A DNA stretch of 64,000 nucleotides, taken from the NCBI RefSeq assembly GCF_036507355.1, contig NZ_AP027877.1; one strand, 5' to 3'. Position numbers and translations under genes: made by a program. Origin of the DNA: Escherichia coli (GTDB lineage Bacteria > Pseudomonadota > Gammaproteobacteria > Enterobacterales > Enterobacteriaceae). Positions 14,005 to 62,603 of the stretch are shown in pieces; within the stretch, counting starts at the first letter, position 1; each line of letters begins with the position of its first letter. The notes below the pieces were generated by a model. It was given only the letters and a program-made list of their open reading frames with translations. It had not been told where the DNA came from and searched no databases.

Positions 14005-14041
14005 TGATGTCTCAAATCATCCCGTAAGAGCGCTGTCAAAA

Positions 14042-14095: not shown

Positions 14096-14126
14096 TAACG
14101 GTATAATAAATAAACAAGGCCCCGTT

Positions 14127-43724: not shown

Positions 43725-43775
43725 ACCGCCCCGGGAATCCTGGAGACTAAACTTCCTGAGAAAGAGGTAAACAGG

Positions 43776-44989: not shown

Positions 44990-45153
44990 GTTCACAGATA
45001 AAACACTCTCCAGGAAACCCGGGGCGGTTCACACTATTATTTCTCCGGTTAGCCTACAACAACGTTTTTATCAGAAGCTCAACCAGCAGATAATAGAAAT
45101 GAAAAACCCATTGCAGTGAAATTATTTTTGACAACATACAGCAGGAGTAAAAA

Positions 45154-47444: not shown

Positions 47445-47480
47445 CACTCGAATAAAAATTACAGCAAGGATAAAACCACA

Positions 47481-50003
47481 ATGCTACAGATAATTGGTGC
47501 GTTAATTTTACTGGTAATCGGTTTTGTTATTATAAAAGCGTTGTTTAAGGCATCTCTCAATATTCTAGGTGTGATATTAGGATTGGGTGCATTGATTGTT
47601 GCAGGCCCACCTTTATTGGCGGGCTATATTGTAGAGCGCGTAACCTATGCGCTTCACTCACGTTGGCTGCTGGGTGTACCTCTTGCCATAGCAGGAATGG
47701 TGATTAGCTTTATGTGGGGACTTGATGGTAAACATATTGCCTACGAAGCCTATTCATTTGATTCAATGAAGTTTATTTTAACCGCTGCATTTGCCAGTGG
47801 CCTGCTTGCAGTACCTGTACAAACCAAGGCTATTCTACAAAACGGGCTTATACCAGCCGATATCAATGCCAAACTTAAAGAGTATTATTGCTGTTTTTAT
47901 ACGTCTTACTTTTTGATGGCCTGCTCTGCGGCTACACCGTTTATAGCCTGGCAATATAATATCTCATCTTCACTGATGTGGTGGACAGGATTGCTATACT
48001 GGATAGCAGCCTTACTGACACAGTTCTATGCGGCAAACCAAATTCAGGAACTCAAGAAGTTAACTAATGCCATCAATACAGGGTTAAATGAGCAAAAAGC
48101 GATCAATAACCAACTTTGGCTGACGGAACTAAAAGAAGGAAGTAACCTCTCAGCAGAATTCGTAGAGACTATCTATCTTAAGTTGGTCTCACAGCATATT
48201 TTTCAGGGCGATACTCGAGAGCAGGATCTGGCTGGTGAAAACTGGCTTTTAAATGATGCCTGGTATGAAAGAAAGATGGCTGAATTTAATGAGCAGTTAA
48301 ACAGTAAAATTGTACACTCATCAGATGAGCTAAGAAGCCTTTTTGGTAATAGGCTGAATTTACCCTCTGCTGCGAATGATGATCTCCTGAACCGTTATCT
48401 TGATGGTGGGAACTATTATTCTTTTTCGGATGGTCGAAAATTTGTCTCGTTTCACTATGTCGACGAGCTTTGTACCTGCACTTCATGCGGTTTGAGCGAG
48501 ATTAAAAACGCAAAACACCAGGACGGTTGTGGGAGCCAGGAATGGTATTGCTCTGATATTTGCCGGGAAACGGAAAAACTCTGCATTGAAATTCACAAGC
48601 GACCACAGGCTGAATTTATTTCCAGTGCAGCAACAAACGGTCTGATTCTCATGACGCTCCCGGAGGCCTGGAATACTAACGAAAAAATGTTTGCAGTGGG
48701 AGGACAAGGACATGGTTTTGCAGCCGAACGGGGAAATCATCTTACTGACAAAATCCAACTAAAAGATGCACATATTCTCGGTGATGATAATGCGAAAAAT
48801 GGTGCAGACAGGCTGGTTAACGGTTCAGAGATTCAGACCAAATACTGTGCAACCGCTGCACGTAGCGTCGGTGCTGGTTTTGACGGACAAAACGGTAATT
48901 ATCGCTATTATGACAGTAACGGAACCCCAATGCAGTTAGAGGTTCCGAAAGACCAGTATTCGAAAGCGCTTGAAACGATGGAGAACAAAATTCGCGATGG
49001 CAAAGTCCCCGGCGTTACCGATCCTGCAGAAGCCACAAAACTTGTACGTCAGGGACACCTGACTTATAGCCAGGCACAAAACATTACTAAGTTTGGCACG
49101 TTCGAATCTATCACTTACGACATTGCGGAAGGATCTATCATCAGCCTCGCAGCTGGAGGTATCAGCTTCGGTCTGACAGCTTCTATTTTCTACCTCAATA
49201 CCGGCGATCGTAAGGCTGCGTTGCAAACGGCAGCAATACAGGCAGGTAAAACATTTACCCGCACACTGACAGTTTATGTGACGGTACAGCAATTACACCG
49301 TATCAGTGCCGTTCAGGGGTTACTTAAAAATATTGATTTTGCCGCTGCCAGCCCGACAGTTCGTAATGCGCTTCAACAGGGAGTCGGAGCTAACAATCTC
49401 AACTCCCTTAACAAGATGATGCGTGGCACACTGGTTACCTCTTTCGCACTGGTCGCCGTGACCACTGGTCCGGATATGATCAAAATGGTGCGAGGTCGTA
49501 TTTCTGGGGCACAGTTTATAAAAAATCTGGCAGTTACTTCATCTGGTGTGGCTGGGGGGGCAATTGGTTCTATTGCTGGCGGAATGATGCTTAGTCCATT
49601 AGGTCCTTTCGGTGCTTTAGCAGGACGCGCAGCTGGTGGCTTGTTAGGCGGTATGATTGCCACAGCGATTTCCAAAAAAATAGCGGGTGCACTGGTTGAA
49701 GACGACCGAGTAAAAGTGCTGGCTCTCATCCAGGAACAGGTTACATGGCTTGCAACAAGTTTCATGCTTACAGCACACGAACTTGAAAACCTGAACGCGA
49801 ATCTGGCAACAGTAATTGACCAAAAAACCCTGGAGGTTATCTTCGCCGCAAAAGAGCAAGACCGAGCAACGGCCAATATGCTGATTAAACCACTTGTAGT
49901 AAGTGTGGTTAAGCAACGACCGGTCCTGAGCTATGAACAATCGCAAATCTGCGAAATGGTCGATCAGCTTGATACATCGGTTTCATTATCTGCTGTTGCA
50001 TAA
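47481..50003 (+). CDS. Hypothetical large membrane protein (N-terminal TM helices, Cys-rich central region, C-terminal Gly-rich TM region)
   Basis: 840-aa ORF with AAGGA ribosome-binding site; Cys cluster CTCTSCG...CGSQEWYCSDIC; Gly-rich C-terminus. Confidence 0.6.
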   Translation: MLQIIGALILLVIGFVIIKALFKASLNILGVILGLGALIVAGPPLLAGYIVERVTYALHSRWLLGVPLAIAGMVISFMWGLDGKHIAYEAYSFDSMKFILTAAFASGLLAVPVQTKAILQNGLIPADINAKLKEYYCCFYTSYFLMACSAATPFIAWQYNISSSLMWWTGLLYWIAALLTQFYAANQIQELKKLTNAINTGLNEQKAINNQLWLTELKEGSNLSAEFVETIYLKLVSQHIFQGDTREQDLAGENWLLNDAWYERKMAEFNEQLNSKIVHSSDELRSLFGNRLNLPSAANDDLLNRYLDGGNYYSFSDGRKFVSFHYVDELCTCTSCGLSEIKNAKHQDGCGSQEWYCSDICRETEKLCIEIHKRPQAEFISSAATNGLILMTLPEAWNTNEKMFAVGGQGHGFAAERGNHLTDKIQLKDAHILGDDNAKNGADRLVNGSEIQTKYCATAARSVGAGFDGQNGNYRYYDSNGTPMQLEVPKDQYSKALETMENKIRDGKVPGVTDPAEATKLVRQGHLTYSQAQNITKFGTFESITYDIAEGSIISLAAGGISFGLTASIFYLNTGDRKAALQTAAIQAGKTFTRTLTVYVTVQQLHRISAVQGLLKNIDFAAASPTVRNALQQGVGANNLNSLNKMMRGTLVTSFALVAVTTGPDMIKMVRGRISGAQFIKNLAVTSSGVAGGAIGSIAGGMMLSPLGPFGALAGRAAGGLLGGMIATAISKKIAGALVEDDRVKVLALIQEQVTWLATSFMLTAHELENLNANLATVIDQKTLEVIFAAKEQDRATANMLIKPLVVSVVKQRPVLSYEQSQICEMVDQLDTSVSLSAVA

Positions 50004-50192
50004 TGAAAGGTATAAATTCATTACCATCGTGATATGGTGCTTCAGACGAAGCAAACTTAAATACCATTAACCCCATGATACTATTGTAAAATCCAAAAAA
50101 AATAATAGTAATCATCATAATGAACTGGTTCGAACAGACTGCGGAAGAGTATGGAGAATTAACAAATAAGGGGGCATTTGCCCCCTTCATCA

Positions 50193-50618
50193 TTATTTCA
50201 GTCGTTTACCTGCATCATCAACGACTTTCTCGCCGTCTTCCTTAGCAAATGCGCCTTTTTGCGCATCCGGAAGAATATCCAGTACCACTTCGGAAGGACG
50301 GCACAGACGCGTTCCCAATGGTGTCGCCACAATCGGGCGATTAATCAGGATCGGATACTGAAGCATAAAATCGACTAACTGATCGTCAGTAAACTTATCT
50401 TCCGCAAGCCCCAGTTCTTCATAAGGTTCAACATTTTTACGCAATAGTGCCCGTACCGTTATCCCCATATCTGCGATGAGTTTGAGCACCTCATCGCGTG
50501 AAGGTGGATTTTCAAGGTAAAGAATAACGTTCGGTTCAGTACCGCTGTTGCGGATCATCTCCAGCGTATTACGCGACGTGCCGCAGGCTGGGTTGTGATA
50601 AATAGTGATGTTGCTCAT
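50193..50618 (-). CDS. arsC: Arsenate reductase (glutaredoxin-type)
   Basis: 141-aa ORF MSNITIYHNPACGTSRNTLEMI... recognised as ArsC. Confidence 0.92.
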   Translation of the reverse strand: MSNITIYHNPACGTSRNTLEMIRNSGTEPNVILYLENPPSRDEVLKLIADMGITVRALLRKNVEPYEELGLAEDKFTDDQLVDFMLQYPILINRPIVATPLGTRLCRPSEVVLDILPDAQKGAFAKEDGEKVVDDAGKRLK

Positions 50619-50630
50619 ATCAATATCTCA

Positions 50631-50840
50631 TTACAAAGTGAAAGAGAGACGTAGCGCCAGCGCGGCCAGCGTTACAAACAGCACAGGCAGAGTCATGATG
50701 ATCCCGGTGCGGAAATAGTATCCCCAGGTGATGGTCATGCTCTTCTGTGAAAAGACATGCAGCCAGAGTAGCGTTGCCAGGCTACCAATAGGTGTAATTT
50801 TCGGCCCCAGATCGCAGCCAATCACGTTGGCATAAATCAT
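50631..50840 (-). pseudogene. arsB: Arsenite efflux pump ArsB, C-terminal fragment only
   Basis: 69-aa ORF matches only the C-terminus of ArsB; no upstream arsB or arsR sequence. Confidence 0.8.
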
Positions 50841-51072
50841 CGCCTCTTTGATAACGCATCATACTGCCAGCGGAATAACTCTCTTCGTCAATACGGCTCT
50901 CGCTGTACGCTTACCCATCTAGAGAGGTTTCAGGTGATTATCGATGTCAGAAGACTGAATGATTCAGTCGTTTACTTTGAGATAGATCAGAGGTTTTTCA
51001 CTACCTGTGTTCATCACATGGCTACGAATAGTAGAATCCAAGCATAAATTAACGCTTAGAAAAGTTGAGCTC

Positions 51073-52272
51073 ATGAGATTCCACCCTGAAGGGCCTTCCA
51101 TACCCGATATCCTCTTAGAACGCTGTGATACAGGTCGAGTTGTATTTCTCTGTGGCGCTGGGGTTTCATTACCTTCAGGGATGCCAAGCTTTGTAGAGCT
51201 TACCCAGCATGTAATTGAATACTTTGACCCACCACACGATTCAGAAATCATGGCAGCATTTCGCCCATGGCTTCACGACCAATCTTCAGCTAATGTCCCT
51301 CTCGACCAAATTTTCAACCTCCTACATCTGGAATATGGCAAGGATGAGGTGAATGCTTTGGTATCAAAGCGTCTGGGGACTGCAAGAACTGATATAGAGA
51401 TTGGACGTGAGCATGCCCTGATTAAAAGAATTTCCTCAAATCAGAGTGGTGTCCCACAGATTGTCACAACGAACTTTGACCGACTGTTCGAGGATAACCA
51501 AGCGCAAGATAATCTAACTCGATATGTGCCGCCAGCTTTCCCAAATCTGAATTTCGGTTCGACAATTGAGGGAATAACATATCTTCACGGCCGCCTGGTC
51601 GACGAAAATGCTGTAAACCATCCTTATGTGCTGAGCAGTGCAGACTTTGGAAGAGCATATCTTTCAGAAGGATGGGCGACCAATTTTATTAAGCTTCTTC
51701 TGGAACGATACATCGTTGTTTTGGTCGGTTATCAGGCAGAAGACCCACCAGTTAAATACCTCCTTCAGGGTCTCAATCATGATGGCCAGTATGATCGTTC
51801 CAGACTTTATGCATTTGATCGCGGCCTTGCCGAGGATATCGAAGCCAAATGGCGTGACAGAGGAGTTACAGCCATAGCCTATTCCGATCATCCAGCTCTT
51901 TGGAAGACTTTGGAAGCATGGGCTGAGCGAGTAGATGATCCACGTCGATGGCGAGCTTCTATTATCGCTAAAAGCCAGCAAGATCCGAAAGTTCTAGCAC
52001 CGTATGAACGTGGTCAACTTGCCCATATACTTCGCACTACACAAGGTGCGAAATTGTTCTCTGAAGCTGTTCCTCTTCCCCATCCAGAGTGGCTTTGTGT
52101 GATGGATGCAAATATTCGGTCAGCCAAACAGAAGAAAAGATACTACGAACTTGATGACAATGATGCAGAGACCTTCGATCCACAAGAAGCTTATGGGCTT
52201 GATGACGATCTGCAAGATATCGCTGATGATGAACGTAAACGTGGAGTGAGTAACGATAATCTCCTTGAATAG
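51073..52272 (+). CDS. SIR2-like (sirtuin-family) domain protein; first segment of a larger interrupted reading frame
   Basis: SIR2-type motifs VVFLCGAGVSLPSGMPSF and VTTNFDRLFE; ends at an in-frame TAG (52270). Confidence 0.7.
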   Translation: MRFHPEGPSIPDILLERCDTGRVVFLCGAGVSLPSGMPSFVELTQHVIEYFDPPHDSEIMAAFRPWLHDQSSANVPLDQIFNLLHLEYGKDEVNALVSKRLGTARTDIEIGREHALIKRISSNQSGVPQIVTTNFDRLFEDNQAQDNLTRYVPPAFPNLNFGSTIEGITYLHGRLVDENAVNHPYVLSSADFGRAYLSEGWATNFIKLLLERYIVVLVGYQAEDPPVKYLLQGLNHDGQYDRSRLYAFDRGLAEDIEAKWRDRGVTAIAYSDHPALWKTLEAWAERVDDPRRWRASIIAKSQQDPKVLAPYERGQLAHILRTTQGAKLFSEAVPLPHPEWLCVMDANIRSAKQKKRYYELDDNDAETFDPQEAYGLDDDLQDIADDERKRGVSNDNLLE

Positions 52273-52308
52273 CGCGACGAAGATGATAACCCGTCAGATT
52301 ACCATCGC

Positions 52309-52998
52309 TTGGCTGGATGTTTGGAGACAATGCCGAAACGATTGAGCCATCTCATGGTCTGGTTCTGCAAATCTCTTGATAGCCCCGTGATGGCTTGGTG
52401 GGCTATCCGAAAAATCAGTATTCATCCTCTACTACTACAAAATATTGAACGCAATATTGAGCATTCAACATCAATCCACAAACGCGCTCGTCAACTGTGG
52501 GGCTTAATTCTTGAACATCATAAAGATCCCCGCAATCGTCGTTATGACGTCGATTGGTACGACTTAAAAGCTCGAATTACAAAACAAGGCTGGACAGCTG
52601 GTGTCTTACGAGAATTTCGTAGGGTAATGACACCCCGATTGGAAAAGAAGTTGCCGTATGGATTGGGTGAAGTCAGACCGCCAAGCGGCTCCTGGGAGGA
52701 AATTCAGTTCAGCGAATTTGGCCAATTTGAAGTTGTGTTCACCGAAAGACATGATGACGATTTAGACGTACCTGACAATGTATTACTACAAGTATTTAAT
52801 GCCTTAGAAGCGCAAATAATAATTGCCTCCGGAATGTTAGAGGATATTGATACGCACTACTTTCCAAGCCCAAGTTGTTATCCAGAACGTGCGGTTGAAG
52901 GAGAAGAACATTTCGCGAAAGGTGCGGAGGTATTAACTTGGTTTGTCCAACTTTTAGACCGAGTTGTTATGAAGTGGCCAGAATTGGCTAAGGCATAA
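52309..52998 (+). CDS. Hypothetical protein; same frame as the upstream SIR2 ORF, likely central part of one disrupted gene
   Basis: Frame open from 52273 with no stop; ends at an in-frame TAA (52996). Confidence 0.5.
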   Translation: MAGCLETMPKRLSHLMVWFCKSLDSPVMAWWAIRKISIHPLLLQNIERNIEHSTSIHKRARQLWGLILEHHKDPRNRRYDVDWYDLKARITKQGWTAGVLREFRRVMTPRLEKKLPYGLGEVRPPSGSWEEIQFSEFGQFEVVFTERHDDDLDVPDNVLLQVFNALEAQIIIASGMLEDIDTHYFPSPSCYPERAVEGEEHFAKGAEVLTWFVQLLDRVVMKWPELAKA

Positions 52999-53103
52999 GT
53001 AACAACTTGGCCAGTTAAGGAGCCATTTTTCTTCCGAAAGCTTAGACTTTATGCATTCAGTAAAAAAGGCGTCTTTGAGGCTGACCGTGTTGCCGAAGAG
53101 CTT

Positions 53104-54882
53104 TTGTCTTTGGATCAAAGTGGATTTTGGGACACAAATATTACCCGCGAACTTCTTTTTCTGCTCACTGATCGTTGGGAAGAATTCTCGCAAGAAAATC
53201 AGAATCGAATTATAGAGCATATATTAACCGGCCCGAACCATTTACTTTATTTGTCTGAGGAAGACATTCCAAAAGAAAGAGAGATATTAGCAGCTAGATA
53301 CGCTCGTTATCTCGAACTAAACGGCTGTAAAGTAACCACTATTCATCGTGACCAACTAACTGCGATGATTAAAAGAATTCCTGACTGGAATGATGGCTGG
53401 GCTACATCTGTTGTCATCAATTGGGGTTCACGGACAGGTTGGGTTCGTACAGACGAAAAGCCAGATATAATCTTAGATCTTCCAGCAAACGAAATAATCC
53501 CAAAAGTAAAAGAGATACTTAAACGAGAGGATGATAGCTTTACTAGTAGGCAACCCTTTGTCGGATTGATAAAAGAAAATCCGCGTAAAGCTTTGTCTGC
53601 ACTCGCTATTGCAGGGAGAGGCGGTGATTACCCTAAGGAATTTTGGTCGCCAATGATAAGTGAGTTACCTATAGATCTTAAACCAAGGGTGAGACGAGTA
53701 TTCCTGAACCGAATTGTGCGATTGCCAGTTACAGCTTTGGTCGAGTTACGACATACATTAAGTAACTGGCTTGAACAAAATTTAGCTGCGACTCTTGAAT
53801 TTGATGAGGATCTCGGGTGGGCAGTTTACGATCATGTCATAGCAGGCATACTGAGTGGTGGCGCCAGTGCAATACGGAGTAGTTTCGGAGAAGTTATCCG
53901 GAATGGAGAAGTTGTAATACAGTCTCGCCGCACGTTCAGTCATGCAATCAATGGTCCTGTCGGTAAATGTACTCAAGCGCTTTTTCAAGCAATGCCAAGT
54001 GAAGAGAAAAAAGCTGGTTCGCTTATTCCTTACTCTATTAAGTCTCGTATTGAACATCTTTTTACTGCACCAGGAGAAGGAGCGGACCACGCTATAGCTA
54101 TAACGTCTCGCAATCTAAATTGGCTAATGTTTGTTGATCCTGCATGGGTAAAGGAATGGCTTATACCCCTTTTGGATTTAAAACATCCTGCAGCAGAACC
54201 AGCATGGAATGGTTATCTTCAGTGCAATGCTATGCCTTCAATTGCAGTAGCTGAACTTATTAAACCAGCTTTTCTTAACCTTATCCCTTGGATCGAATCT
54301 CTTTCTTGGGAAAAAGATTATTCAGTTCGAGCTTCGCAATGGCTTGGCTTAATGAGAATGTTTCACCCTGATGAGCCCTCCAGTCCTTCCAGGAATGAAA
54401 TGCGCTCCATATTACGAGCATTATCTGACGAGGCTCGAAATCGTTTTATTTCCTGGTTAGGATTGGTCGGGCAGAAAAACGAGAGTGGCTGGGTTAAGTA
54501 TGTGATCCCATTAATCAGAGAGGACTGGCCCAAAGAACGCCAATATAGAACCACGAGCTCTGTAAAAGCATGGATTGGTTTACTTGACGATACTGGCGAT
54601 AAGTTTCCGGAGGTTTACGATTCAGTAAAAACATACTTAGTACCAATCGAGACAATTGATCATTTGTTCTACAGATTCACTCGGGAGCTCGGTGGTAAAG
54701 GAGCAATTGCGGCTATTTTTCCAGAAACCACGCTTGATTTAATGGACAAAATAACACCACTGATATTCACGCGTACATCAGGAGAGCTGCAGAAGATTCT
54801 TGAGCTAATTGAAGATACAGATACAAGTCTGATCAAGGATTCTCGGTACTTACGGCTTATTGCACTGGTTGAGAAAAATTAG
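53104..54882 (+). CDS. Hypothetical protein; same frame as the two upstream ORFs, likely C-terminal part of the SIR2-containing gene
   Basis: Frame open from 52999 with no stop; 592-aa helical protein, no motif recognised. Confidence 0.5.
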   Translation: MSLDQSGFWDTNITRELLFLLTDRWEEFSQENQNRIIEHILTGPNHLLYLSEEDIPKEREILAARYARYLELNGCKVTTIHRDQLTAMIKRIPDWNDGWATSVVINWGSRTGWVRTDEKPDIILDLPANEIIPKVKEILKREDDSFTSRQPFVGLIKENPRKALSALAIAGRGGDYPKEFWSPMISELPIDLKPRVRRVFLNRIVRLPVTALVELRHTLSNWLEQNLAATLEFDEDLGWAVYDHVIAGILSGGASAIRSSFGEVIRNGEVVIQSRRTFSHAINGPVGKCTQALFQAMPSEEKKAGSLIPYSIKSRIEHLFTAPGEGADHAIAITSRNLNWLMFVDPAWVKEWLIPLLDLKHPAAEPAWNGYLQCNAMPSIAVAELIKPAFLNLIPWIESLSWEKDYSVRASQWLGLMRMFHPDEPSSPSRNEMRSILRALSDEARNRFISWLGLVGQKNESGWVKYVIPLIREDWPKERQYRTTSSVKAWIGLLDDTGDKFPEVYDSVKTYLVPIETIDHLFYRFTRELGGKGAIAAIFPETTLDLMDKITPLIFTRTSGELQKILELIEDTDTSLIKDSRYLRLIALVEKN

Positions 54883-55040
54883 CATTTATGGTTTTTTACC
54901 GTTGTTGATTACTCAGCAACACTTTTCGACATGCCGTAGCGCTTATCGCCTGTTCTTGACTAAGATGAGAAGCAGGCGTTAAAGTTTGGTTAAAGGAGAA
55001 CCTCTAACCATTCCTTCTGGAAGAAATAATCTTTGGAGTA

Positions 55041-55769
55041 TTATTGAAATTGCTCAAATATACCATGCAACCCAATAAATTTTATTTTTAGTGCAGGATC
55101 ATGCCTTAGAACAGTCTCAAGTGAGTTCCGCTCATAAATTATTGATTGTGCTTGTATTGAGCCGTTCCATGAAGGCAAAAGCAGTAAAGCAGATGTTTCC
55201 AAATCAATACCCCACCAATCGTTAACATAGCAATTTAAAAAATCAACAAGAGCCTTAATCGCAATAAAAGCATCTTTTTCGGTATATGTTTCAGGATCGA
55301 GGGATATACCTGATATATTACTTTTAGCTTGCTCGGAATTAATATTAGACTGGTGTTGATAAGCAATTTTTCCTTCACCCGGTTTAGTTTCTATTGTATC
55401 AGTGAAAATTTTAATCTTAGGATGCACCAATGCATTTCGTTGTGCTATTAATTCTTTTATTATTTGTGTTTGAGTGGTTCCACGAGGTAAAGACATGTCT
55501 TTATGCCATTGAAGAGTATAGTCAAATTTATCAAGTGAAGAGAACCTGTCAATTTGATCTTTTAACTTTTGCGTTATTTCTATAGAAGATAAAAATGAGT
55601 TAGCTGCAGCCTCAATAGCGTAGTTAATTGAAAGTACACTTGATTTGGCAAGTGTTTTTTTGATGTGTGATTTTTTTGTTGCAGCTGATAATTCATAAAG
55701 AGTTATTGCATCAGAAAAAAGCTCAAAAAAGCTGTTCTTGGTTATTTCAACTTTTCTTTTCACACGCAA
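55041..55769 (-). CDS. Hypothetical protein (third gene of AT-rich operon)
   Basis: 242-aa ORF, visibly AT-rich; no motif recognised. Confidence 0.6.
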   Translation of the reverse strand: MRVKRKVEITKNSFFELFSDAITLYELSAATKKSHIKKTLAKSSVLSINYAIEAAANSFLSSIEITQKLKDQIDRFSSLDKFDYTLQWHKDMSLPRGTTQTQIIKELIAQRNALVHPKIKIFTDTIETKPGEGKIAYQHQSNINSEQAKSNISGISLDPETYTEKDAFIAIKALVDFLNCYVNDWWGIDLETSALLLLPSWNGSIQAQSIIYERNSLETVLRHDPALKIKFIGLHGIFEQFQ

Positions 55770-55852
55770 CCCTCTGCATAAAAAATAAAATCATATAGAC
55801 AGAATACAATTTCCTATAATCTTTACATTCTACTAATTGTGGATATAAATGG

Positions 55853-57325
55853 CTATCGAGAATAAGAACTGGGTTTAGGAAAACCACCTCTGACGACGAC
55901 AACAACAATTGCAACTTGAGATTGACCTGTTGGATGAGTGAATACTTCAATATCATCCTCTATTACTCCCACCGGCGCTGATTTTGACGTTGATTCCAGA
56001 ACAACCAAAATACCGATACGCTTACCTAATCCAATGGCATAAGCTGCTGTTTGATCGAAATATTTTTGAAAATCCTTGGGAAAAAGAACCTTATTATTTT
56101 CAACTTTTAGTTCTATCGGAATGTCTTCAAATGTGAGATCCGTTATCCCGCCAGCAGCCTCTGGATGGCCTTGTAATTTCTCGCCAATCTCATTCCTACT
56201 TCTAAGCATTTCGGCTATTTTACGCTGAAATTTTTGCTCTGATGTGCCAGCAATAAATAAACTAGCTTTAAGAGCTTGTGCTGCAACATTTCCTAAGCCG
56301 CCAAGTATAACCATTGTATTAGCAATGTCATCTGAGTGTAATCCAGGGAAAGCTCGTAATATGTTACGAATTTTTATAAGATGCCTATCGACGTTTGAAA
56401 ATCCAGTTAATGGAGCTTGAGCGGAATCACTCCCTTCAAGTAGTAAGCGCCTATGTCCTACGATAGCAATATTTTGGCAATTACTTAAATTGTCAAACTC
56501 GGCAGCATATAGGAATTCGTAAGGTCTCGAGCCAAATGAATTTGCCACTTCCAAGACGACACGACCGATCCCCTTCAGTGTGAAGGGGCCTTCCCCCTCT
56601 GGTTTCTCAAATCTAAAATCAGGCAACCAGTCTCGCTCACGAGCATCAATTGTCACTGGCTTTAATGAGAGGAAATTTGCACTTTTTGGCCAATTTGAAA
56701 CCCTGACCTCTATGTTAAGGTCATAAGCCGTACCCGGCTTAAGATAATTCCATTGCTGAGCTGGTTCCCCATCAATATCAAACTTTAGAAATGCAACTGT
56801 CGATTCTTGTGTTTTATTCTCTTTTGTCTCTTTACTAGATATTCCTTGCCTAATCTCCTCAATATTTTTATCGCGAAGATTTGCGAATAAGAGTAGTGGC
56901 AATGACCAGCTTGTTAACTGGTCTTGTATTTGTTTTAATGAATCTAATTTACTGATTGAACGGACTTGCTCTATAAATTCATTAAATTGTTTGTTCTCCG
57001 AGAGACTCGTCGTCATGTCGATCTCTGATGCTTTTAATTGTGCTGAATTTAAAAACCTTTGAGCATCAGTCTCAGCATTACGTATAGCATGTTTCCACTC
57101 AGCTAGAGTTACAAATATAGTCATTGCTATATAATATGCACGATATTGATCTTCAACATATCCCTGACCGAGCTCATCGAGCGTTTCATTGAGCTTTTGA
57201 CACGCTTCTTTAAGTTTCACCAAGTCATTCGGAATGGACTTGAGTGCACCATCCAACGCTGCTGCAATCTCAACCCTCGGAGAAAAAGCTTGGCGGAAAA
57301 TCTCGAAATTTGGCTCGTTCTTCAT
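55853..57325 (-). CDS. Hypothetical protein (second gene of AT-rich operon)
   Basis: ORF 55853-57367; start placed at ATG 57325; overlaps the 3' end of the upstream gene. Confidence 0.6.
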   Translation of the reverse strand: MKNEPNFEIFRQAFSPRVEIAAALDGALKSIPNDLVKLKEACQKLNETLDELGQGYVEDQYRAYYIAMTIFVTLAEWKHAIRNAETDAQRFLNSAQLKASEIDMTTSLSENKQFNEFIEQVRSISKLDSLKQIQDQLTSWSLPLLLFANLRDKNIEEIRQGISSKETKENKTQESTVAFLKFDIDGEPAQQWNYLKPGTAYDLNIEVRVSNWPKSANFLSLKPVTIDARERDWLPDFRFEKPEGEGPFTLKGIGRVVLEVANSFGSRPYEFLYAAEFDNLSNCQNIAIVGHRRLLLEGSDSAQAPLTGFSNVDRHLIKIRNILRAFPGLHSDDIANTMVILGGLGNVAAQALKASLFIAGTSEQKFQRKIAEMLRSRNEIGEKLQGHPEAAGGITDLTFEDIPIELKVENNKVLFPKDFQKYFDQTAAYAIGLGKRIGILVVLESTSKSAPVGVIEDDIEVFTHPTGQSQVAIVVVVVRGGFPKPSSYSR

Positions 57326-59843
57326 ATTCTTTCTCCAACTCAGCCGTAAGACCATTCCATTTTTCAATTAAGTCATTATAGGGTTCGCAAACACTTATGG
57401 CATGTTCAATGCTAGCTGCTTCTGTAACTAAAGCAGCCTTAAGTTTCCATTGTGTATTTCTTTCATCATTTGGAATTTCTTCCAGTAGTTCCTTTAAACA
57501 AACATTTGCAGTTACGTTATCACCACACTTGCTTAACGCAGCCACGTACACTAATGCTTCAATAAATTGTTGAGGTTTAAATGGTTTCAGAGCATTGAAT
57601 GCTTTTTGGAGATCGTCTTTACAATTTCGAAGCTCATTATGTGGCGCTCTTAATATCACTGAGATGCAGTCATCAATAGAAATACTGCGAGTATACTCAT
57701 CCTGAATTGCTTTGAGTGCGACTTTGACAAAACCGGGAATATCATCAAAATGAAAACGCAATCGATTGATAGCATCATAAAGTGCACTTCCTTCTAAAAT
57801 TAATAATATATTAGAAAGAAGCAATCCAATTTTCCCCTTTCTCTCTTCATCTGATAAGCAAAGAGAAGAAAAAACGTCAATGCATTCTACAATGAAATTA
57901 TCTTTTTTATCTTGTTGAATATAATAGCAAATTAGATTCCATAGCCGGGATCTCACAAGTCCCCGTTTCTCCTCAGGAAAAGATCTACGGCTCAAAGCGC
58001 GAACAGCATACTGATGCACCATAACATATTGATCTAATAGCAAGACTGAATATGCTTCGAAGAATAAATCTGGGAAATTCTTCACTAAATCATAGGGAAC
58101 ATTTTCCCACGCTTGTACGGCACGTGCTCGAATCAATGTACTCTCATCCATAAGAGCACGATACCAATCGGAGAGCACTAGTGTTAGGCTGTCAATACCA
58201 GTTAATAACTTAGAAACATGGGCAATCATGTTCCCACGCATTTGAGTTTGTTCTTCTGGTAAGCTTCTATAGAGATGAAGAAAATCATCGATTCCTTCAC
58301 TCCCTCTAGATTTAGCTCCAATCGCAGCCCATTCAATCAATGCACCCTGTAAGCCATCAATAGCATTACGCTTATTACTTTTATCTAAATGATCTAGAAA
58401 ACTCTCATTTATTTCTATGATTTTTTCTTTATTCAACGCCTCAAATTTCTCGCTTAGCGTTGCAGCCGCTCCGATCAAATCGTCAAAATTATCAACTGCA
58501 AGCTCAGCAAATTCGTCCCAAGAGTGTCTAAAGAATTGTCCTGCATCATCCATGCTATCCTCTGGATTTTCCACAGCAGCCCAGAGCAAACGCCTAAAAG
58601 CTATTTTTTGTGTCTTTCCTGTTTTACTTTTTTTTCTATAGTTATTTCGCAGTACAGATCTGTAAGCTCTATTGGCCTCATGTCTCCCAATATCATCTTT
58701 GTCAGCAAGATAGGATTGAATAACTTTATCGCTTTCATCGGGAAATCTATCTAAGTATTTCGTAGCAGCCTCCCGAAGAAAGAAAAGAATGCTGCTATCT
58801 CTCCGCTCCTCCGGGAGTAGAGTCCGTCGACGCATCAGCTTAGCAAATATACTTCTAATATGTCTTAGAAGCAGCTCATCATCATCCGATGCAATAATTA
58901 TCTCAATAGCAAATTGAAATTTTCCCCGGTGAGTATCTTTTATGTATTCATCAACAACATCACAGATATCAGCTTGTCTTTTTTTAAAAAGTGACTGAAT
59001 GGGGCCTTTATTAAGTACTTTTCGCTCAAATGTGCCAATCATCATTCCAGGAGGAGATTCAACAGCCATTCTAACAAAGTGGTAAAGGACTTTTAAGAAA
59101 TCATCTTCAGATAGATTCTCTGCTTCCAAGAGGATTGCTTCTATAGCTGGTGGACAATATTCGAAGTTGTTTATTAAATATACTGAAATTGCCAGTTTTT
59201 CCGCTTGTGATAATTCAGTTCTTATTAAAGCTTTTGCTGCTGGCATTGAATATGGTAATTTCTCATGTAACACTGCAGGCAACAAGTGTTCAATTATTTT
59301 ACTTGTAAATGTCTCAGGTGCCAGATTAGCAAGTTGTTCCAAACGGGGATCGTTGTTCTCTATATCCTCTTGATCGAGTTCATCAAGCAAATCAAGCACA
59401 AACGTTTCTTCTAGAGTAAGTGAAAGACGTAATACTGCTCGTTCTTGTTGTCTATTGAGCTGCTTCTGCTTTCTCTGCCTTTCTTCTTCTTTGCGAGCCA
59501 AATTTCGTTCTTCGGCAGATTTTTCTCTTGGGCCTACAAACTCTAAAATATTGGGAAATCCCACCGGAACCCGTTGATTACAATGTTTACAGTTCTGTTT
59601 ATAGAAGCTGTAAACCGAGTCTTCCAGCAGCCAGCTAAGCATTGAACTTTGCTTAACAAATTTGCATTGAACTCCCATGTGACCAATGGGTAACCCTGTT
59701 TCAGCCTCAATCATGCCTCTCCCCTCTGATCGAATGAATTCAGAGTGAGAACACCAGTTACTAAGTAGGTGTACAGCACGGAGATTTCGTTGACCAGCTT
59801 CGATTGCCTCTTCAAATCTTTTTTTATCTTCAAAATCATCCAT
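57270..59843 (-). CDS. Hypothetical large protein (first gene of AT-rich operon), N-terminal Cys/His cluster
   Basis: 857 aa; N-terminal C/H-rich segment (CSHSEF...C...CKHCNQ), then charged coiled region and helical repeats; no NTPase motif. Confidence 0.6.
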   Translation of the reverse strand: MDDFEDKKRFEEAIEAGQRNLRAVHLLSNWCSHSEFIRSEGRGMIEAETGLPIGHMGVQCKFVKQSSMLSWLLEDSVYSFYKQNCKHCNQRVPVGFPNILEFVGPREKSAEERNLARKEEERQRKQKQLNRQQERAVLRLSLTLEETFVLDLLDELDQEDIENNDPRLEQLANLAPETFTSKIIEHLLPAVLHEKLPYSMPAAKALIRTELSQAEKLAISVYLINNFEYCPPAIEAILLEAENLSEDDFLKVLYHFVRMAVESPPGMMIGTFERKVLNKGPIQSLFKKRQADICDVVDEYIKDTHRGKFQFAIEIIIASDDDELLLRHIRSIFAKLMRRRTLLPEERRDSSILFFLREAATKYLDRFPDESDKVIQSYLADKDDIGRHEANRAYRSVLRNNYRKKSKTGKTQKIAFRRLLWAAVENPEDSMDDAGQFFRHSWDEFAELAVDNFDDLIGAAATLSEKFEALNKEKIIEINESFLDHLDKSNKRNAIDGLQGALIEWAAIGAKSRGSEGIDDFLHLYRSLPEEQTQMRGNMIAHVSKLLTGIDSLTLVLSDWYRALMDESTLIRARAVQAWENVPYDLVKNFPDLFFEAYSVLLLDQYVMVHQYAVRALSRRSFPEEKRGLVRSRLWNLICYYIQQDKKDNFIVECIDVFSSLCLSDEERKGKIGLLLSNILLILEGSALYDAINRLRFHFDDIPGFVKVALKAIQDEYTRSISIDDCISVILRAPHNELRNCKDDLQKAFNALKPFKPQQFIEALVYVAALSKCGDNVTANVCLKELLEEIPNDERNTQWKLKAALVTEAASIEHAISVCEPYNDLIEKWNGLTAELEKEYEERAKFRDFPPSFFSEG

Positions 59844-60246
59844 TTAGATAACACCCTTATAAGGAACATGTACTCATCTAAAATGCTGTTACCGGATTAT
59901 TATACCTAAAACAATGAATGCTGTGTATTATGAAATGTGATATAAGTCAATTAGTTACATATAAAAACCAACTCACATCCAAAAGGATAGTATTTCGAGG
60001 TTTGTAGCATCATTAAATGTGAACTTATTTATCGCCCCCTCAAGTTAACTAATAAATAAGTTATAATTTACATATACTTCTGGAATTTAGAAACCTTATA
60101 TCTAATAGTTGAGTAAGTTAATAATCAACTTGAGTGTGATTCATAAAAAAAATAATTATTATTTTCAGCCCCTCCATTATGGAGGAGCAATAATAGTATA
60201 GTTTTCCTGTATTCCTAACGATCCAGTTAGGCTTAGAGAAATCTAA

Positions 60247-61443
60247 TTATGAAGCACTCCTGAGAGCAACCCTTCCAACTTTATCAATATAATCCGCATA
60301 CCACTGCATCATCTCTCTCCTGCCTTCCAAATACAGCGCATGGTTGTACGTCCCGCGAATCGCATTCTTATCGACATGCGCAAGCTGGGTTTCAATCCAT
60401 GCGGTATTGAACCCTTCCTCATGCAAAATCGTACTCATCGTGTGGCGGAAACCATGCCCCGTTACCTTCCCCGTGTACCCAATCCGCTTAAACACCTGAT
60501 TAATACTCGCTTCGCTCATTGTTTTGCGGGGATCATTCCTCCCAGGAAACACCAGAGGATATTGCCCAGACATCACTTTGAGCTGCTGTACGATCTCCAG
60601 CGCTTGGGTAGAGAGGGGCACCAGGTGAGGCCGTTTCATCTTCATGCGCTCTGCAGGTATTTCCCACACCGCTTTTTCAAGATCAAACTCACTCCAGAAA
60701 GCACCTCGAAGCTCACCGGTGCGAACCCCCGTAAGGATCAGCAAACGTGCGGCAAGAACAACCAGCGGGCTGCCTGTATAGCCAGAAAGAGCTTTAAAGA
60801 AATCTGGTAACTCCTCAACGGTAAGGAAGGGATAATGCTTCGATTCATGCCCTGACATCGCGCTGGTTAGATCCGCAGCCGGATTGTATTCCGCACGACC
60901 GGTAACTATGGCGTAGCGAAAGACTTCGCTGCAGCGCTGGCGAACTTTCTTGGCCTTCTCTGTCGCACCACGGCTTTCCATTCGACGCAGTACATTCAAC
61001 AGAACAAGAGGCTTAATTTCATTGACTGGCTGCTGACCGATATAGGGAAAAATATCTTTATTTAAAGCTTCGATAATGTCCGATGCATACCCTTCTGACC
61101 ATCTGCTCACCTTCGTACCGTGCCACTCAAGCGCCACAGACTGGAACGTATTATTGAGCTGCACATCACGAACCAGCTTTTCTTCTTTCTTGGCAAACGA
61201 TGGATCGATACCCTCGGCCAGCTTTTTCTTGGCTTCATCGCGTAGTGCCCTCGCTTGAGCAAGGGACACTGCCGGATAAACGCCAAAAGCCATACGCTTC
61301 TCTTTTCCATTGAAGCGATATTTCATTCGCCAGTATCGAGAACCAGAGGGAACGACTTCAAGATACAAACCAGCACCATCTGCCAGCTTATAGGCTTTCT
61401 CTCTGGGTTTAGCTGCATCTACCTGTCGCGCATTTAGCTTCAT
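60247..61443 (-). CDS. int: P4-type tyrosine integrase (island right end)
   Basis: Start taken at MKLNARQVDAAKP (ATG 61443); boxes VRTGELR, GHGFRHT, RGTYNHALY; paralogous to the integrase at 14127. Confidence 0.9.
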   Translation of the reverse strand: MKLNARQVDAAKPREKAYKLADGAGLYLEVVPSGSRYWRMKYRFNGKEKRMAFGVYPAVSLAQARALRDEAKKKLAEGIDPSFAKKEEKLVRDVQLNNTFQSVALEWHGTKVSRWSEGYASDIIEALNKDIFPYIGQQPVNEIKPLVLLNVLRRMESRGATEKAKKVRQRCSEVFRYAIVTGRAEYNPAADLTSAMSGHESKHYPFLTVEELPDFFKALSGYTGSPLVVLAARLLILTGVRTGELRGAFWSEFDLEKAVWEIPAERMKMKRPHLVPLSTQALEIVQQLKVMSGQYPLVFPGRNDPRKTMSEASINQVFKRIGYTGKVTGHGFRHTMSTILHEEGFNTAWIETQLAHVDKNAIRGTYNHALYLEGRREMMQWYADYIDKVGRVALRSAS

Positions 61444-61606
61444 TGGGGGCATCTCCCTGGACCGAACACAGAATGCCCCCACTTATGCCCCCAACTGTAA
61501 CTTGATTCCGGTTGAGTCCAGTTGATAACAGGAGATAAAATACGGGCTAGAAACCGCAGTATACGGGCTTTTAGTTGATTTCGGTAGACTTGGGAAGAGT
61601 TTGAAA

Positions 61607-61655
61607 TGGTGCCGATAATAGGAGTCGAACCTACGACCTTCGCATTACGAATGCG
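61607..61655 (-). other. thrW: tRNA-Thr(CGU) 3' fragment, 49 nt (anticodon arm to CCA); att-core remnant, not a complete tRNA
   Basis: Reverse complement CGCATTCGTAATGCGAAGGTCGTAGGTTCGACTCCTATTATCGGCACCA folds as anticodon stem-loop (anticodon CGT), T-arm and acceptor 3' strand; 5' half absent. Confidence 0.8.
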
Positions 61656-61768
61656 AGCCAGTTCGAAAATGAGTATAACTATGAGTACATAAAAAACAAA
61701 TAATTAATAAAAATATATTAATCAATATGATATCACATAAGTTACGGTTCAACGTCTAATTAATTTAT

Positions 61769-61849
61769 TGTCTCATGAGGTTTCGCTAAATCTCATGAAG
61801 AGCGCAAAAGTATATAAAATCCACGCAATTGCGTGGATTTTTCATTTCA
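61769..61849. repeat. Right copy of 81-bp imperfect direct repeat bounding the island (putative attR)
   Basis: Matches 13924-14004, with the last 37 bp identical including the palindrome. Confidence 0.8.
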
Positions 61850-62603
61850 CCGAGTCCTAATCATTCTTGTAACATCCTACACTTTTGTGCTTATTGCCTA
61901 CAGTGAACCACGAGAATAATTAAAGACATAAGTGTTCAGATGACGGATATCTCATTAGCAGTGATATAACGTCAGTTTTTGTTCCACTACACATCAGCCC
62001 CCTTCACAGCTGATCAATATTGATCACGCTCCAATATACTGGCGAGAAAAGGACTTACCTGAAGGGTAATATCCCGCAGATAAAGTCCCCGAATAACGTG
62101 ATTACGTGCGATCCTGGCAAGATGAAAATGATAACCAATAGCACGATAATAACGATATGCCAGAACATCCATTGATCAAAAATGAATATCGATGTTTTTT
62201 GCTTTTTCTTATTAGTAATGCAAAAATGGCGCATATTGTTTTTGTTATGCAGATACATCAAGCGAAAATCCCATAACTAATTAGGATTATTACCAAAAAA
62301 TATTCACCAAATTATTTAACCGCTGTTTGTTGTAATGTTTTTGTCATATTCATAGTAACGAATTGGAATAAGTAACGACAACTTAGGGAATAACTCGATC
62401 TAAACTTACCTTTGTAATGGGGATGTTAAATATATATTAATTCCTGTGTTTCTGATTTTACCCGGTAATAGAGAATTATTCTCATAGCAGCTCATCATGA
62501 TTGCACCATACAAATATCATGATGATAAGAGGATATTATTCATTGACTTAAACAAAATGACAAAATTCATAGACCCATAGCCTGGGTACTATATAGGAGT
62601 GGT

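What the first reader, a model, noticed from the sequence alone, without database searches (positions are those of the whole stretch)
61607..61655. Orphan 3' fragment of tRNA-Thr(CGU) beside the right-end integrase, far from any complete tRNA gene
The 49-nt segment folds as anticodon stem-loop (anticodon CGT), T-arm and acceptor 3' strand with CCA, but the 5' half of the tRNA is missing. This is the classic signature of a tRNA-targeting integrative element (attP carrying the tRNA 3' end), yet here the element sits downstream of ychF, not at a tRNA gene. It suggests a thrW-type island that integrated at a secondary site, or was relocated together with its att remnant.
Basis: partly seen in the sequence, partly recalled or inferred. 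Interest (0 to 1): 0.55.

Follow-up and report, generated by a model that had tools for sequence, protein, structure and literature searches.

The report
Half-tRNA scar inside nested genomic islands
The half tRNA-Thr gene is real, and it marks where a piece of a thrW-targeting defence island is joined to the inner end of a larger island that is itself inserted at the 3' end of the ychF gene, so this is a composite of known kinds of mobile element rather than a new mechanism.

Summary
Observation confirmed. Window 61607-61655 (minus strand) matches E. coli thrW positions 28-76 exactly (49/49), and the window holds no complete tRNA.

The 47.7-kb insertion is bounded by a 105-bp imperfect direct repeat of the ychF 3' end plus terminator (13901-14005 and 61748-61850; perfect core TTCAACGTCTAA). 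K-12 has the empty site. The insertion belongs to a second P4-type integrase, intA (14127-15320). Its homologues lie about 215 bp downstream of ychF in Pseudomonas, Morganellaceae and Bordetella.

The fragment lies 92 bp inside the right repeat, next to integrase intB. intB plus 16.6 kb (45032-61606) differ by 6 substitutions from an island at genuine thrW in other strains. An IS629-like element truncates this segment.

A thrW-like piece starting at position 28 sits at this spot in every ychF-island variant examined, including ones without intB; intA occurs in 629 of 5,426 complete E. coli genomes.

Best reading: the ychF islands carry a thrW-like att site and a thrW-type island was joined there. 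Site-specific docking is favoured, but homologous exchange is not excluded. ychF-ycgV is already a listed defence hotspot. Modest interest.

The parts
12821..13912 (+). ychF, the target gene of the outer island (island A). Its last 12 nt, TTCAACGTCTAA, form the perfect core of the direct repeat.
   Evidence: ORF list; annotated as ychF in ET826, AR_0128 and K-12; core located.
13901..14005 (+). attL of island A: the ychF 3' end followed by an island-supplied, diverged copy of the ychF terminator hairpin.
   Evidence: 105-bp repeat, 86.7% identical to 61748-61850. The left copy differs from K-12, while the right copy closely matches it (97% over the 300-bp K-12 match). The same layout is seen in Pseudomonas, Morganellaceae and Bordetella.
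14041..14097 (+). Three TGAGTAC repeats (starting at 14043, 14055, 14087) between attL and intA; probable intA arm-type binding sites.
   Evidence: ATGAGTAYA occurs 6 times in the window against 0.7 expected, and 4 of the 6 lie in the two att arms. Coordinates. The triple repeat is conserved upstream of intA homologues in three other genera.
14127..15320 (+). intA, a 397-aa P4-type tyrosine integrase specific for the ychF 3' end.
   Evidence: NCBIfam NF007246, 266 bits. Found in 629 of 5,426 E. coli genomes. Homologues of 67-86% identity; the three contexts checked lie ~215 bp downstream of ychF.
43722..45031 (+). IS629-like IS3-family element (1310 bp, ALIL pseudoknot) that truncates island B on its distal side. 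No target-site duplication.
   Evidence: Rfam ALIL hit; ends and flanks AAC/CAC; Z226-5 has uninterrupted sequence across this point.
45032..61606 (-). Integrase-proximal 16.6 kb of thrW-type island B: PDC-M09, an arsC remnant, Dsr1 (two nonsense mutations), Olokun OloA/OloB, intB and its arm.
   Evidence: 99.96% identical to Z226-5 thrW island L005 31544-48170, with 6 real substitutions. Defence-system hits. GC 34-46% between 51 and 61 kb against ~50-55% in the flanking core genes.
60247..61443 (-). intB, a 398-aa P4-type tyrosine integrase whose usual site appears to be thrW.
   Evidence: 38% identical to intA; NF007246, 302 bits. 100% identical DNA lies next to the complete tRNA-Thr in Z226-5, Z226-6, PSJ-29 and EC2641. 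About 200 genomes carry 90-95% variants.
61607..61655 (-). The finding: an exact copy of thrW positions 28-76, a thrW-type att junction nested inside island A.
61656..61747 (+). 92-bp distal arm of island A's att region, with two ATGAGTAYA repeats (61669-61677 and 61681-61689).
   Evidence: Identical in AR_0128, which lacks intB. About 77% identical, with the motifs conserved, in the 4/1-1 (ST131-type) and 201609 variants.
61748..61850 (+). attR of island A: the original ychF 3' end (12 nt) plus the native terminator, continuing into the native ychF-ycgV spacer.
   Evidence: K-12 positions 168-467 of the oriented spacer match window 61748-62047 at 97%; alignments A1 and A2; repeat statistics.

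Best explanation
SHOWN. The window is an E. coli chromosome segment in which a 47.7-kb composite defence island lies between ychF and ycgV. The outer element (island A) is integrated at the 3' end of ychF and carries its own P4-type integrase, intA. It supplies a replacement terminator for ychF, and it is bounded by a 105-bp imperfect direct repeat with the perfect core TTCAACGTCTAA. The distal arm of this island family carries a thrW-like piece that always starts at tRNA position 28, directly after a ~92-bp arm bearing intA-type repeat motifs. Position 28 is also the boundary of the thrW repeat that flanks the K-12 cryptic prophage CP4-6. In the window this piece is a perfect 28-76 copy, and it continues into the arm, integrase (intB) and first 16.6 kb of an island that normally sits at the genuine thrW.

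INFERRED. An excised thrW-type island B recombined, through intB, with the island-borne thrW copy as if it were thrW. The crossover lay in the last ~16 nt, as at genuine thrW. This produced a 'thrW 3' part -> intB' junction without the tRNA 5' half. An IS629-like element later removed the distal half of island B together with its far junction. The remaining segment has only one att site and has lost its AlpA-type regulator. It can therefore no longer excise by itself and can only travel as cargo of island A through intA recombination at the ychF repeats.
For: - Exact 49/49 match to thrW 28-76, with no complete tRNA in the window.
- Empty site in K-12 and duplication of the ychF 3' end plus terminator at 13901-14005 and 61748-61850.
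- intA homologues sit ~215 bp downstream of ychF in three other genera, with the same terminator-plus-three-repeat arm.
- The repeat motif is enriched (6 observed, 0.7 expected) and concentrated in both arms, including the 92 bp next to the fragment.
- intB plus 16.6 kb differ by 6 substitutions from the thrW-resident island, and the identity ends exactly at tRNA position 28.
- At genuine thrW, island B's far junction keeps only TCCTATTATCG-CACCA in two different chromosomal contexts, which defines a 3'-terminal crossover core.
- The thrW-like piece plus arm is present without intB in AR_0128-type genomes (positions 28-66) and in 511 ST131-type genomes (positions 28-63, 2 mismatches). It is present with a decayed intB homologue in the 201609-type lineage.
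- K-12 CP4-6 has the same 28-76 block as its att repeat.
- The IS629-like element abuts island B without a target-site duplication, while Z226-5 is uninterrupted there.
- Capture of one island inside another through a short att site has an experimental precedent, CGI48/GI21 (PMC8978831).
Against: - The far junction expected from a site-specific insertion is absent from the window and from all three sister genomes, so the integration event itself is not documented.
- The perfect ATCGGCACCA at the junction requires a target with an intact thrW 3' end. No such unoccupied target was found: AR_0128 has a degenerate end and the ST131-type is truncated.
- In all three 'occupied' variants only the junction next to the 92-bp arm survives, a pattern that homologous replacement would also give.
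- The 201609-type lineage shows that the intB-type/thrW-piece/arm arrangement is old: its remnant is only 83-85% identical to extant intB genes. The association could therefore be ancestral rather than a recent docking.
- The origin of the thrW-like piece in island A is unexplained.
Confidence: 0.55

Rival explanations
1. Homologous replacement. The island-borne thrW piece (39-49 nt), together with a second shared sequence such as an IS copy or a conserved island backbone gene, served as homology for a double crossover or gene conversion. The donor was a thrW::island B locus in the same cell or in incoming DNA. This copied 'thrW 28-76 - intB - 16.6 kb' into the distal end of island A, with no integrase action.
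For: Only the junction beside the 92-bp arm exists in every occupied variant, and no far junction is ever seen. The IS629-like element at the other end of the segment lacks a target-site duplication, as expected if an IS copy was the second crossover point. The perfect thrW 3' end is explained directly by copying from the real gene. Island A and thrW islands share CP4-type backbone modules such as radC, yeeU and cbtA.
Against: The homology on the tRNA side is only 39-49 bp, which by general knowledge is near the lower limit for RecA-dependent exchange. None of the examined thrW-resident copies of island B carries the IS629-like element at that position. The IS3-family copy near the AR_0128 arm is a different element.
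Confidence: 0.22
2. Ancestral bipartite integration module. The arrangement 'intB <- arm - thrW 28-76 - 92-bp arm - ychF core - arm -> intA' is a single two-integrase, two-attP region of one element. That element could enter either thrW or ychF, and the window shows it in the ychF state.
For: The two att regions are only 92 bp apart and are flanked by divergent intact integrase genes. The same arrangement recurs in a lineage whose arms are only ~77% identical (201609-type), with a co-diverged, now decayed, intB homologue.
Against: No complete E. coli genome contains an uninterrupted attP_A, meaning the element inserted anywhere other than ychF: 0 of 5,426 genomes cover at least 80% of a chimeric attP query. 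Island B at genuine thrW ends with its own far arm and a 16-nt repeat, with no intA module, in two strains. Most ychF islands lack intB. The island B segment differs by only 6 substitutions from thrW-resident copies, whereas the island A backbone differs by 0.3-0.4% between AR_0128 and the window.
Confidence: 0.13
3. The whole insertion downstream of ychF is a thrW-type island that used a chromosomal secondary site, or that was moved there by a chromosomal rearrangement together with its att remnant.
For: The fragment is a genuine thrW att remnant next to a thrW-type integrase.
Against: The insertion is bounded by ychF 3'-end repeats and has a ychF-specific integrase at the other end. The fragment is separated from chromosomal DNA by an island A arm. 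The thrW-like piece is present in ychF islands that have no intB. The flanking synteny is native.
Confidence: 0.03
4. Assembly artefact or chance resemblance. On this view the real genome has a complete tRNA here, or the match is fortuitous.
For: None found.
Against: The match is an exact 49-mer. The identical junction is present in three independently assembled complete genomes. Related junctions occur in more than 600 genomes.
Confidence: 0.01

Closest known systems
Orphan thrW 28-76 repeat at the intF end of cryptic prophage CP4-6 in E. coli K-12
   Same: It is exactly the same 49-nt block (thrW 28-76) with the same 5' boundary, lying about 110 bp from an integrase gene and far from the 5' half of any tRNA. 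The arm beyond the thrW piece in the AR_0128-type ychF island is homologous (76% over 150 bp) to the CP4-6 arm next to thrW.
   Different: In K-12 the orphan copy is a true island boundary at the thrW locus itself, paired with the complete thrW 34 kb away. IntF is only ~20% identical to intA or intB, and it diverges from the position-28 side, whereas intB follows the CCA side. Here the copy is about 1 Mb from thrW and sits inside another island.
thrW-resident island B of strains Z226-5 and PSJ-29 (a GI-thrW-type defence island with a P4-type integrase)
   Same: The integrase, arm and 16.6 kb of cargo (Olokun, Dsr1, PDC-M09) differ by 6 substitutions. The orientation is the same tRNA 3' end -> integrase.
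   Different: There the integrase follows a complete thrW, and the island ends with a CbtA/YeeU module and a 16-nt thrW repeat. Here the tRNA 5' half is replaced by an island A arm, the distal ~11 kb and the far repeat are missing, and Dsr1 carries two nonsense mutations.
Composite genomic island CGI48 carrying GI21 in Shewanella putrefaciens CN-32 (PMC8978831)
   Same: An island with its own integrase is captured inside another island through a short att sequence. The composite sits at the outer island's site.
   Different: In CGI48 both att sites of the inner island are present and excision of both elements was shown experimentally. Here only one inner junction remains, nothing has been tested, and the inner site mimics a tRNA gene 3' part.
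E. coli defence-island hotspot #22, ychF-ycgV (Hochhauser et al. 2023, PMC10121019, S1 Table)
   Same: It is the same chromosomal interval, and the cargo is anti-phage systems on integrase-bearing islands. The S1 Table row carries the values 1231, 99 and 0.08.
   Different: The paper lists the hotspot only by its flanking genes. Its main text does not mention the ychF 3'-end repeat, the integrase specificity or the internal thrW-like piece.
Tandem or nested accretion of integrative elements at tRNA genes, with integrase subfamilies that prefer the anticodon loop, the T loop or the 3' end (Williams 2002, recalled from memory; cited as reference 26 in PMC10121019)
   Same: A block starting at the 5' side of the anticodon stem (position 28) is the signature of anticodon-loop integrators. 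A ~16-nt 3'-terminal repeat is the signature of 3'-end or T-loop integrators. Both signatures are visible at this one site.
   Different: The recipient sequence is not a tRNA gene but a 5'-truncated copy carried on a mobile island that targets a protein-coding gene.

Membership tests
Functional tRNA-Thr(CGU) gene (thrW) | Complete cloverleaf detected by a tRNA finder | tested here: not met
   ARAGORN finds 0 genes in the window. The 27 nt of the 5' half are absent.
Functional tRNA-Thr(CGU) gene (thrW) | Reaches the Rfam tRNA gathering score | tested here: not met
   RF00005 scores 24.2 bits against a gathering score of 29.
att junction of a tRNA-targeting integrative element | Exact identity to the 3' part of the target tRNA gene | tested here: met
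   49/49 match to thrW 28-76.
att junction of a tRNA-targeting integrative element | Adjacent tyrosine integrase that sits next to the complete tRNA gene in other genomes | tested here: met
   intB is 100% identical to the integrase beside thrW in Z226-5, Z226-6, PSJ-29 and EC2641.
att junction of a tRNA-targeting integrative element | A second direct repeat of the tRNA 3' end at the other end of the element | tested here: not met
   No other thrW 12-mer and no blastn-short hit in the window or in ET826. Island B is cut by an IS629-like element.
att junction of a tRNA-targeting integrative element | The outer flank is the chromosomal neighbourhood of the tRNA gene | tested here: not met
   The outer flank is the 92-bp arm of island A followed by the ychF attR. 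The genuine thrW neighbours proA.
ychF-3'-end-targeting P4-type integrase islands (island A) | Integrase about 215 bp downstream of ychF in the same orientation, with an island-supplied terminator | tested here: met
   Window gap of 214 bp. The spacing is 215 bp, with the same architecture, in Pseudomonas, Morganellaceae and Bordetella.
ychF-3'-end-targeting P4-type integrase islands (island A) | Direct repeats of the target 3' end at both ends, and an empty site in related genomes | tested here: met
   105-bp repeat at 86.7% identity with a perfect 12-bp core. K-12 has ychF, a 768-bp spacer and ycgV with a single copy.
ychF-3'-end-targeting P4-type integrase islands (island A) | Arm-type repeat motifs on both sides of the core | tested here: met
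   ATGAGTAYA occurs 6 times against 0.7 expected, with sites in both arms, and is conserved across genera. Binding was not tested.
ychF-3'-end-targeting P4-type integrase islands (island A) | Excision to a circular form with attP, and restoration of attB | not testable with these tools
   No uninterrupted attP_A is present in the 5,426 genomes. This needs PCR or sequencing of induced cultures.
Composite (nested) genomic island of the CGI48/GI21 type | An inner element with its own integrase and att sequence lies inside an outer element bounded by a different att pair | tested here: met
   The intB/thrW junction lies 92 bp inside the ychF attR of the intA island.
Composite (nested) genomic island of the CGI48/GI21 type | Both att sites of the inner element are present, and it can excise independently | tested here: not met
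   Only one thrW-derived site is present. Excision is not testable here.
CP4-6 / IntF-type thrW elements | An IntF-like integrase | tested here: not met
   IntF is ~20-22% identical to intA and intB. tblastn finds no IntF-like sequence in the AR_0128, 4/1-1 or 201609 islands.
CP4-6 / IntF-type thrW elements | An att identity block equal to thrW 28-76 | tested here: met
   The K-12 orphan copy at L008 36707-36755 is the same block with the same 5' boundary.

The most novel reading that the evidence does not exclude
The ychF-targeting island family carries a portable mimic of the thrW attachment site (thrW 28-76) in its distal arm. This mimic would work as a landing pad for thrW-specific elements of two different integrase classes: intB-type islands with a 3'-terminal core, and CP4-6-type elements with an anticodon-loop block. 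Those elements could then accrete onto, and hitch-hike with, an island that inserts at a protein-coding gene. That would explain three different 'occupants' at the same nucleotide position in three ychF-island lineages, and it would make hotspot #22 a two-tier integration platform.
Probability: 0.35. Interest if true: 0.6.

Novelty: new variant of a known kind. Interest (0 to 1): 0.35.

Why it matters
The result explains an apparently misplaced tRNA fragment without invoking a chromosomal secondary site.

It also gives nucleotide-level att anatomy for a defence-island hotspot (ychF-ycgV, #22) that has so far been listed only by its flanking genes. That anatomy comprises the ychF 3'-end core, an island-supplied terminator and arm repeats. 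The associated integrase family has kept this target from Pseudomonas and Bordetella to E. coli, and it is present in about 12% of complete E. coli genomes, including ST131.

If the island-borne thrW copy really acts as a landing pad, mobile islands can carry attachment sites for other islands. That would be a simple route to the mosaic, multi-integrase 'integrase-only' defence islands whose mobilisation is described as unclear in PMC10121019.

There is a practical consequence too. att-based island callers that take a tRNA fragment beside an integrase as an island boundary would mis-delimit this element by 92 bp on one side and 47 kb on the other.

Tried and rejected
1. **A 63,084-bp end repeat suggesting a circular molecule.** Rejected. 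It is two copies of a 1.23-kb IS3-family element (44-1272 and 63128 onward), and the sequence between them is ordinary chromosome.

2. **The 92 bp as the far-end arm of island B, i.e. an intact attP_B.** Rejected. At genuine thrW, island B's far arm is ...GGTGTGTTATGT and its repeat is only 16 nt. The 92 bp recurs without intB and carries intA-type motifs.

3. **AR_0128-type site as the direct target of island B.** Rejected. Its thrW 3' end is degenerate (TT-GTC-CCA), while the window junction has the perfect ATCGGCACCA that must come from the target side of the crossover.

4. **Dual-attP element caught in the thrW state.** A chimeric attP_A query found no uninterrupted copy in 5,426 genomes.

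5. **Megablast with the 92-mer alone.** It gave nothing, probably because of low-complexity masking, so longer queries were used.

6. **Scan of 100,044 species-representative genomes with the arm motif AAAATGAGTAYNNNNNATGAGTACA.** It gave one hit in an unrelated MAG, about what I estimated by chance. Far ends of the family outside E. coli therefore remain unseen. The 9-kb loci from other genera contained no second ychF core and no thrW-like piece.

7. **The flank beyond the piece in the ST131-type variant.** It has no similarity to any fetched thrW-island arm.

8. **Literature searches.** Searches for a described E. coli ychF island, a thrW pseudo-site or CP4-6 excision data found only the hotspot table entry. 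Williams 2002 is not held in the library.

9. **A sub-threshold Rfam Leu_leader hit at 61774-61844.** It is just the ychF terminator hairpin.

Full report
**Observation**

Read on the minus strand, window 61607-61655 is CGCATTCGTAATGCGAAGGTCGTAGGTTCGACTCCTATTATCGGCACCA. This matches positions 28-76 of E. coli thrW, tRNA-Thr(CGU), at 49 of 49 bases. The preceding bases (...TTTTCGAACTGGCT) are unrelated to the tRNA 5' half. ARAGORN finds no tRNA in the whole window. No other 12-mer of thrW occurs in the window. The Rfam tRNA model reaches only 24.2 bits against a gathering score of 29. An intact 398-aa tyrosine integrase (intB, 60247-61443, minus strand) follows the CCA end after 163 bp. Three independently assembled complete genomes (ET826, ET881, ET729) have the same junction, so it is not an assembly artefact.

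**What surrounds it**

The window is E. coli chromosome. The genes from kdsA through pth to ychF (ychF at 12821-13912) are followed by a 47.7-kb insertion. After the insertion come the native ychF-ycgV spacer and the 5' part of ycgV. K-12 has ychF and ycgV separated by 768 bp, which is an empty site.

Aligning that spacer to the window shows that one stretch is present twice. It comprises the last 12 nt of ychF (TTCAACGTCTAA) plus the terminator hairpin, about 102 bp in all. One copy is at 13901-14005, in a diverged, island-derived version. The other is at 61748-61850 and closely matches K-12 (97% over the 300-bp K-12 match). The two window copies are 86.7% identical to each other over 105 bp. 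A 397-aa P4-type integrase, intA (14127-15320), lies 214 bp after ychF.

Homologues of intA at 67-86% identity occur across gamma- and beta-proteobacteria. In the three genera examined (Pseudomonas, Morganellaceae, Bordetella) the homologue starts 215 bp downstream of ychF. Each is preceded by an element-supplied terminator and three TGAGTAY repeats. In the window the motif ATGAGTAYA occurs 6 times against 0.7 expected. Two copies lie upstream of intA and two lie in the 92 bp between the tRNA fragment and attR. One search places a third TGAGTAC repeat upstream of intA. So the real boundaries of the insertion are the ychF repeats, the responsible integrase is intA, and the 92-bp segment 61656-61747 is the distal arm of that element (island A). 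The tRNA fragment lies inside island A.

**What the fragment belongs to**

Window 45032-61655 differs by 6 substitutions from a segment of an island that sits at the genuine thrW (proB-proA-thrW-intB...) in strain Z226-5. The same island is present in PSJ-29. The identity stops exactly at window 61655, which is tRNA position 28.

intB at >=99% identity occurs in seven complete genomes, four next to tRNA-Thr and three (the ET strains) at the ychF island. About 200 further genomes carry 90-95% variants. At genuine thrW this island (island B) ends with a CbtA/YeeU module. In both Z226-5 and PSJ-29, which have different downstream contexts, the far junction reads ...GTTATGT|TCCTATTATCG-CACCA|flank. 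IntB's repeat is therefore only the last ~16 nt of thrW.

In the window, island B is cut at 45031/45032 by a 1310-bp IS629-like element (43722-45031). This element has no target-site duplication, and Z226-5 is uninterrupted at that point. The distal ~11 kb of island B, its AlpA-type regulator and its far junction are absent.

**The thrW-like piece is a family trait of ychF islands**

- **AR_0128-type islands.** The intA gene and the 92-bp arm are identical to the window's, but there is no intB. They carry thrW 28-66 followed by a degenerate end. Beyond it lies an arm 76% identical to the K-12 thrW-to-ykfI spacer of CP4-6, and then a cbtA remnant.
- **ST131-type islands (strain 4/1-1).** These have different cargo, and 511 genomes carry this far end. 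They have thrW 28-63 with two mismatches, then a 77%-identical arm with the same motifs, then TTCAACGTCTAA.
- **201609-type islands.** The integrase remnant is >=99% identical in 82 genomes. They carry a decayed intB homologue, a homologous intB-side arm and a diverged full-length 28-76 piece, followed by the arm and the core.

In all of them the piece starts at position 28. That is also the boundary of the exact 49-nt orphan thrW copy beside intF at the end of K-12 CP4-6, and of the annotated CP4-6 interval. intA-type integrases occur in 629 of 5,426 complete E. coli genomes. Only 18 genomes have the window-type arm, and only three have intB there.

**Mechanism**

Shown: the element is a composite. 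A thrW-type integrase-plus-att module is nested 92 bp inside the attR of a ychF-targeting island. The nested module has a single att site.

Inferred as most likely (about 0.55): excised island B recombined through IntB with a perfect island-borne thrW 28-76 copy, as it does with thrW. This gave the junction 'arm - thrW 28-76 - intB'. The IS629-like element then deleted the distal half. The junction has the perfect ATCGGCACCA, whereas island B's own core copy has a single G. The target must therefore have had an intact thrW 3' end, so AR_0128-type sites cannot be the direct target, and the predicted unoccupied target has not been observed.

A serious rival (about 0.2) is homologous replacement, using the 39-49-nt piece and a second shared sequence. 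It would explain why only the arm-proximal junction is ever seen. An ancestral two-integrase module (about 0.13) is suggested by the old 201609-type arrangement. It is not supported by any genome with an uninterrupted attP_A, nor by the structure of island B at thrW.

A single homologous crossover with the real thrW is unlikely. The two copies are in direct orientation in the K-12 frame, and local synteny is native. Whatever the route, the island B segment can now move only as cargo of island A.

The ultimate origin of the thrW-like piece in island A is unresolved. The position-28 boundary and the CP4-6-like arm in AR_0128 suggest a vestigial or captured att core of an anticodon-loop-type thrW element. 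This is an inference and from recalled knowledge of tRNA sublocation classes (Williams 2002).

**Comparison with what is known**

thrW is a classical island hotspot (PMC7545054). Orphan thrW 28-76 copies beside integrases are already annotated in K-12. Capture of one island in another through short att sites has been shown experimentally for CGI48/GI21 (PMC8978831). The ychF-ycgV interval is hotspot #22 of the E. coli defence-island survey (PMC10121019, S1 Table).

I found no description of the ychF 3'-end att structure, of the cross-genus conservation of the integrase's target, or of the internal thrW-like piece. The fragment is thus an ordinary kind of object, an att remnant, in an unusual place: a tRNA-mimicking site carried by an island that targets a protein-coding gene. 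I rate it a new variant of a known kind, of modest interest.

**Limits**

No experiment was possible. Far ends of the intA family outside E. coli were not reached. The counts come from complete RefSeq E. coli genomes only. The integration event itself is inferred, because the distal junction is missing in all four available copies.

Noticed in passing
window 44-1272 and 63128-64000: Two direct copies of a ~1.23-kb IS3-family element, with ends TGAATCGCCACGG...CCGTGGCGATTCA and partly 97% identical to the K-12 ISX remnant. They bracket the whole 62-kb kdsA-ychF-island-ycgV' segment. The right copy interrupts ycgV (5' part at 62604-63127). The pair could mediate deletion or duplication of the entire region.
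   Followed up: partly
window 51250-54882: The Dsr1 (SIR2) defence gene of island B carries two nonsense substitutions (window 52271 and 52998; codons 341 and 583) relative to the intact 1210-aa gene in Z226-5. These are 2 of only 6 differences in 16.6 kb, so the system was inactivated recently.
   Followed up: yes
window 19505-23407, 35070-42507, 42801-43724, 45154-50003, 55853-59843: The composite is a dense defence island. It holds Tmn (KAP NTPase), a type I R-M system with a DUF4268 gene, a zorA truncated by the IS629-like element (ET826 has the full zorABCD), PDC-M09A/B plus an 840-aa partner, and Olokun OloA/OloB. The sister island in AR_0128 carries DarTG and RADAR instead.
   Followed up: partly
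window 25761-26708 (minus strand): A third tyrosine recombinase, XerC/XerD-like and 315 aa, sits next to a radC/DUF2787/YeeU/CbtA module. It is conserved (57-99% identity) in all three ychF-island lineages examined, so it looks like part of the island A backbone. Its role is unknown.
   Followed up: partly
loci L013-L018 (Pseudomonas, Morganellaceae, Bordetella): The intA integrase family is unusually conserved (67-86% identity across beta- and gamma-proteobacteria). In the three genera examined it lies 215 bp after ychF, with an element-supplied rho-independent terminator and three TGAGTAY repeats. I found no description of this conserved protein-gene-targeting att design in the searchable literature.
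   Followed up: partly
window 15299-18435 and 34145-34920: Island A is riddled with IS elements: IS100 (istA/istB), an IS1222-type frameshift element at 17921-18039, and an IS1 copy. These separate the blocks that differ between the window, ET826 and AR_0128.
   Followed up: no
window 43717-43721 versus ET826 L007 34221-34225: The window and ET826 have different sequence to the left of the IS629-like element (inside zorA versus the end of zorD), but both read AAAAC immediately before the IS end. This suggests a microhomology-associated deletion of zorA'-zorD in the window lineage rather than a clean IS-adjacent deletion.
   Followed up: no
window 61774-61844: A sub-threshold Rfam Leu_leader hit (31 bits against a gathering score of 50) coincides with the ychF terminator hairpin AAAATCCACGCAATTGCGTGGATTTTT. 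It is a terminator look-alike, not a leader.
   Followed up: yes
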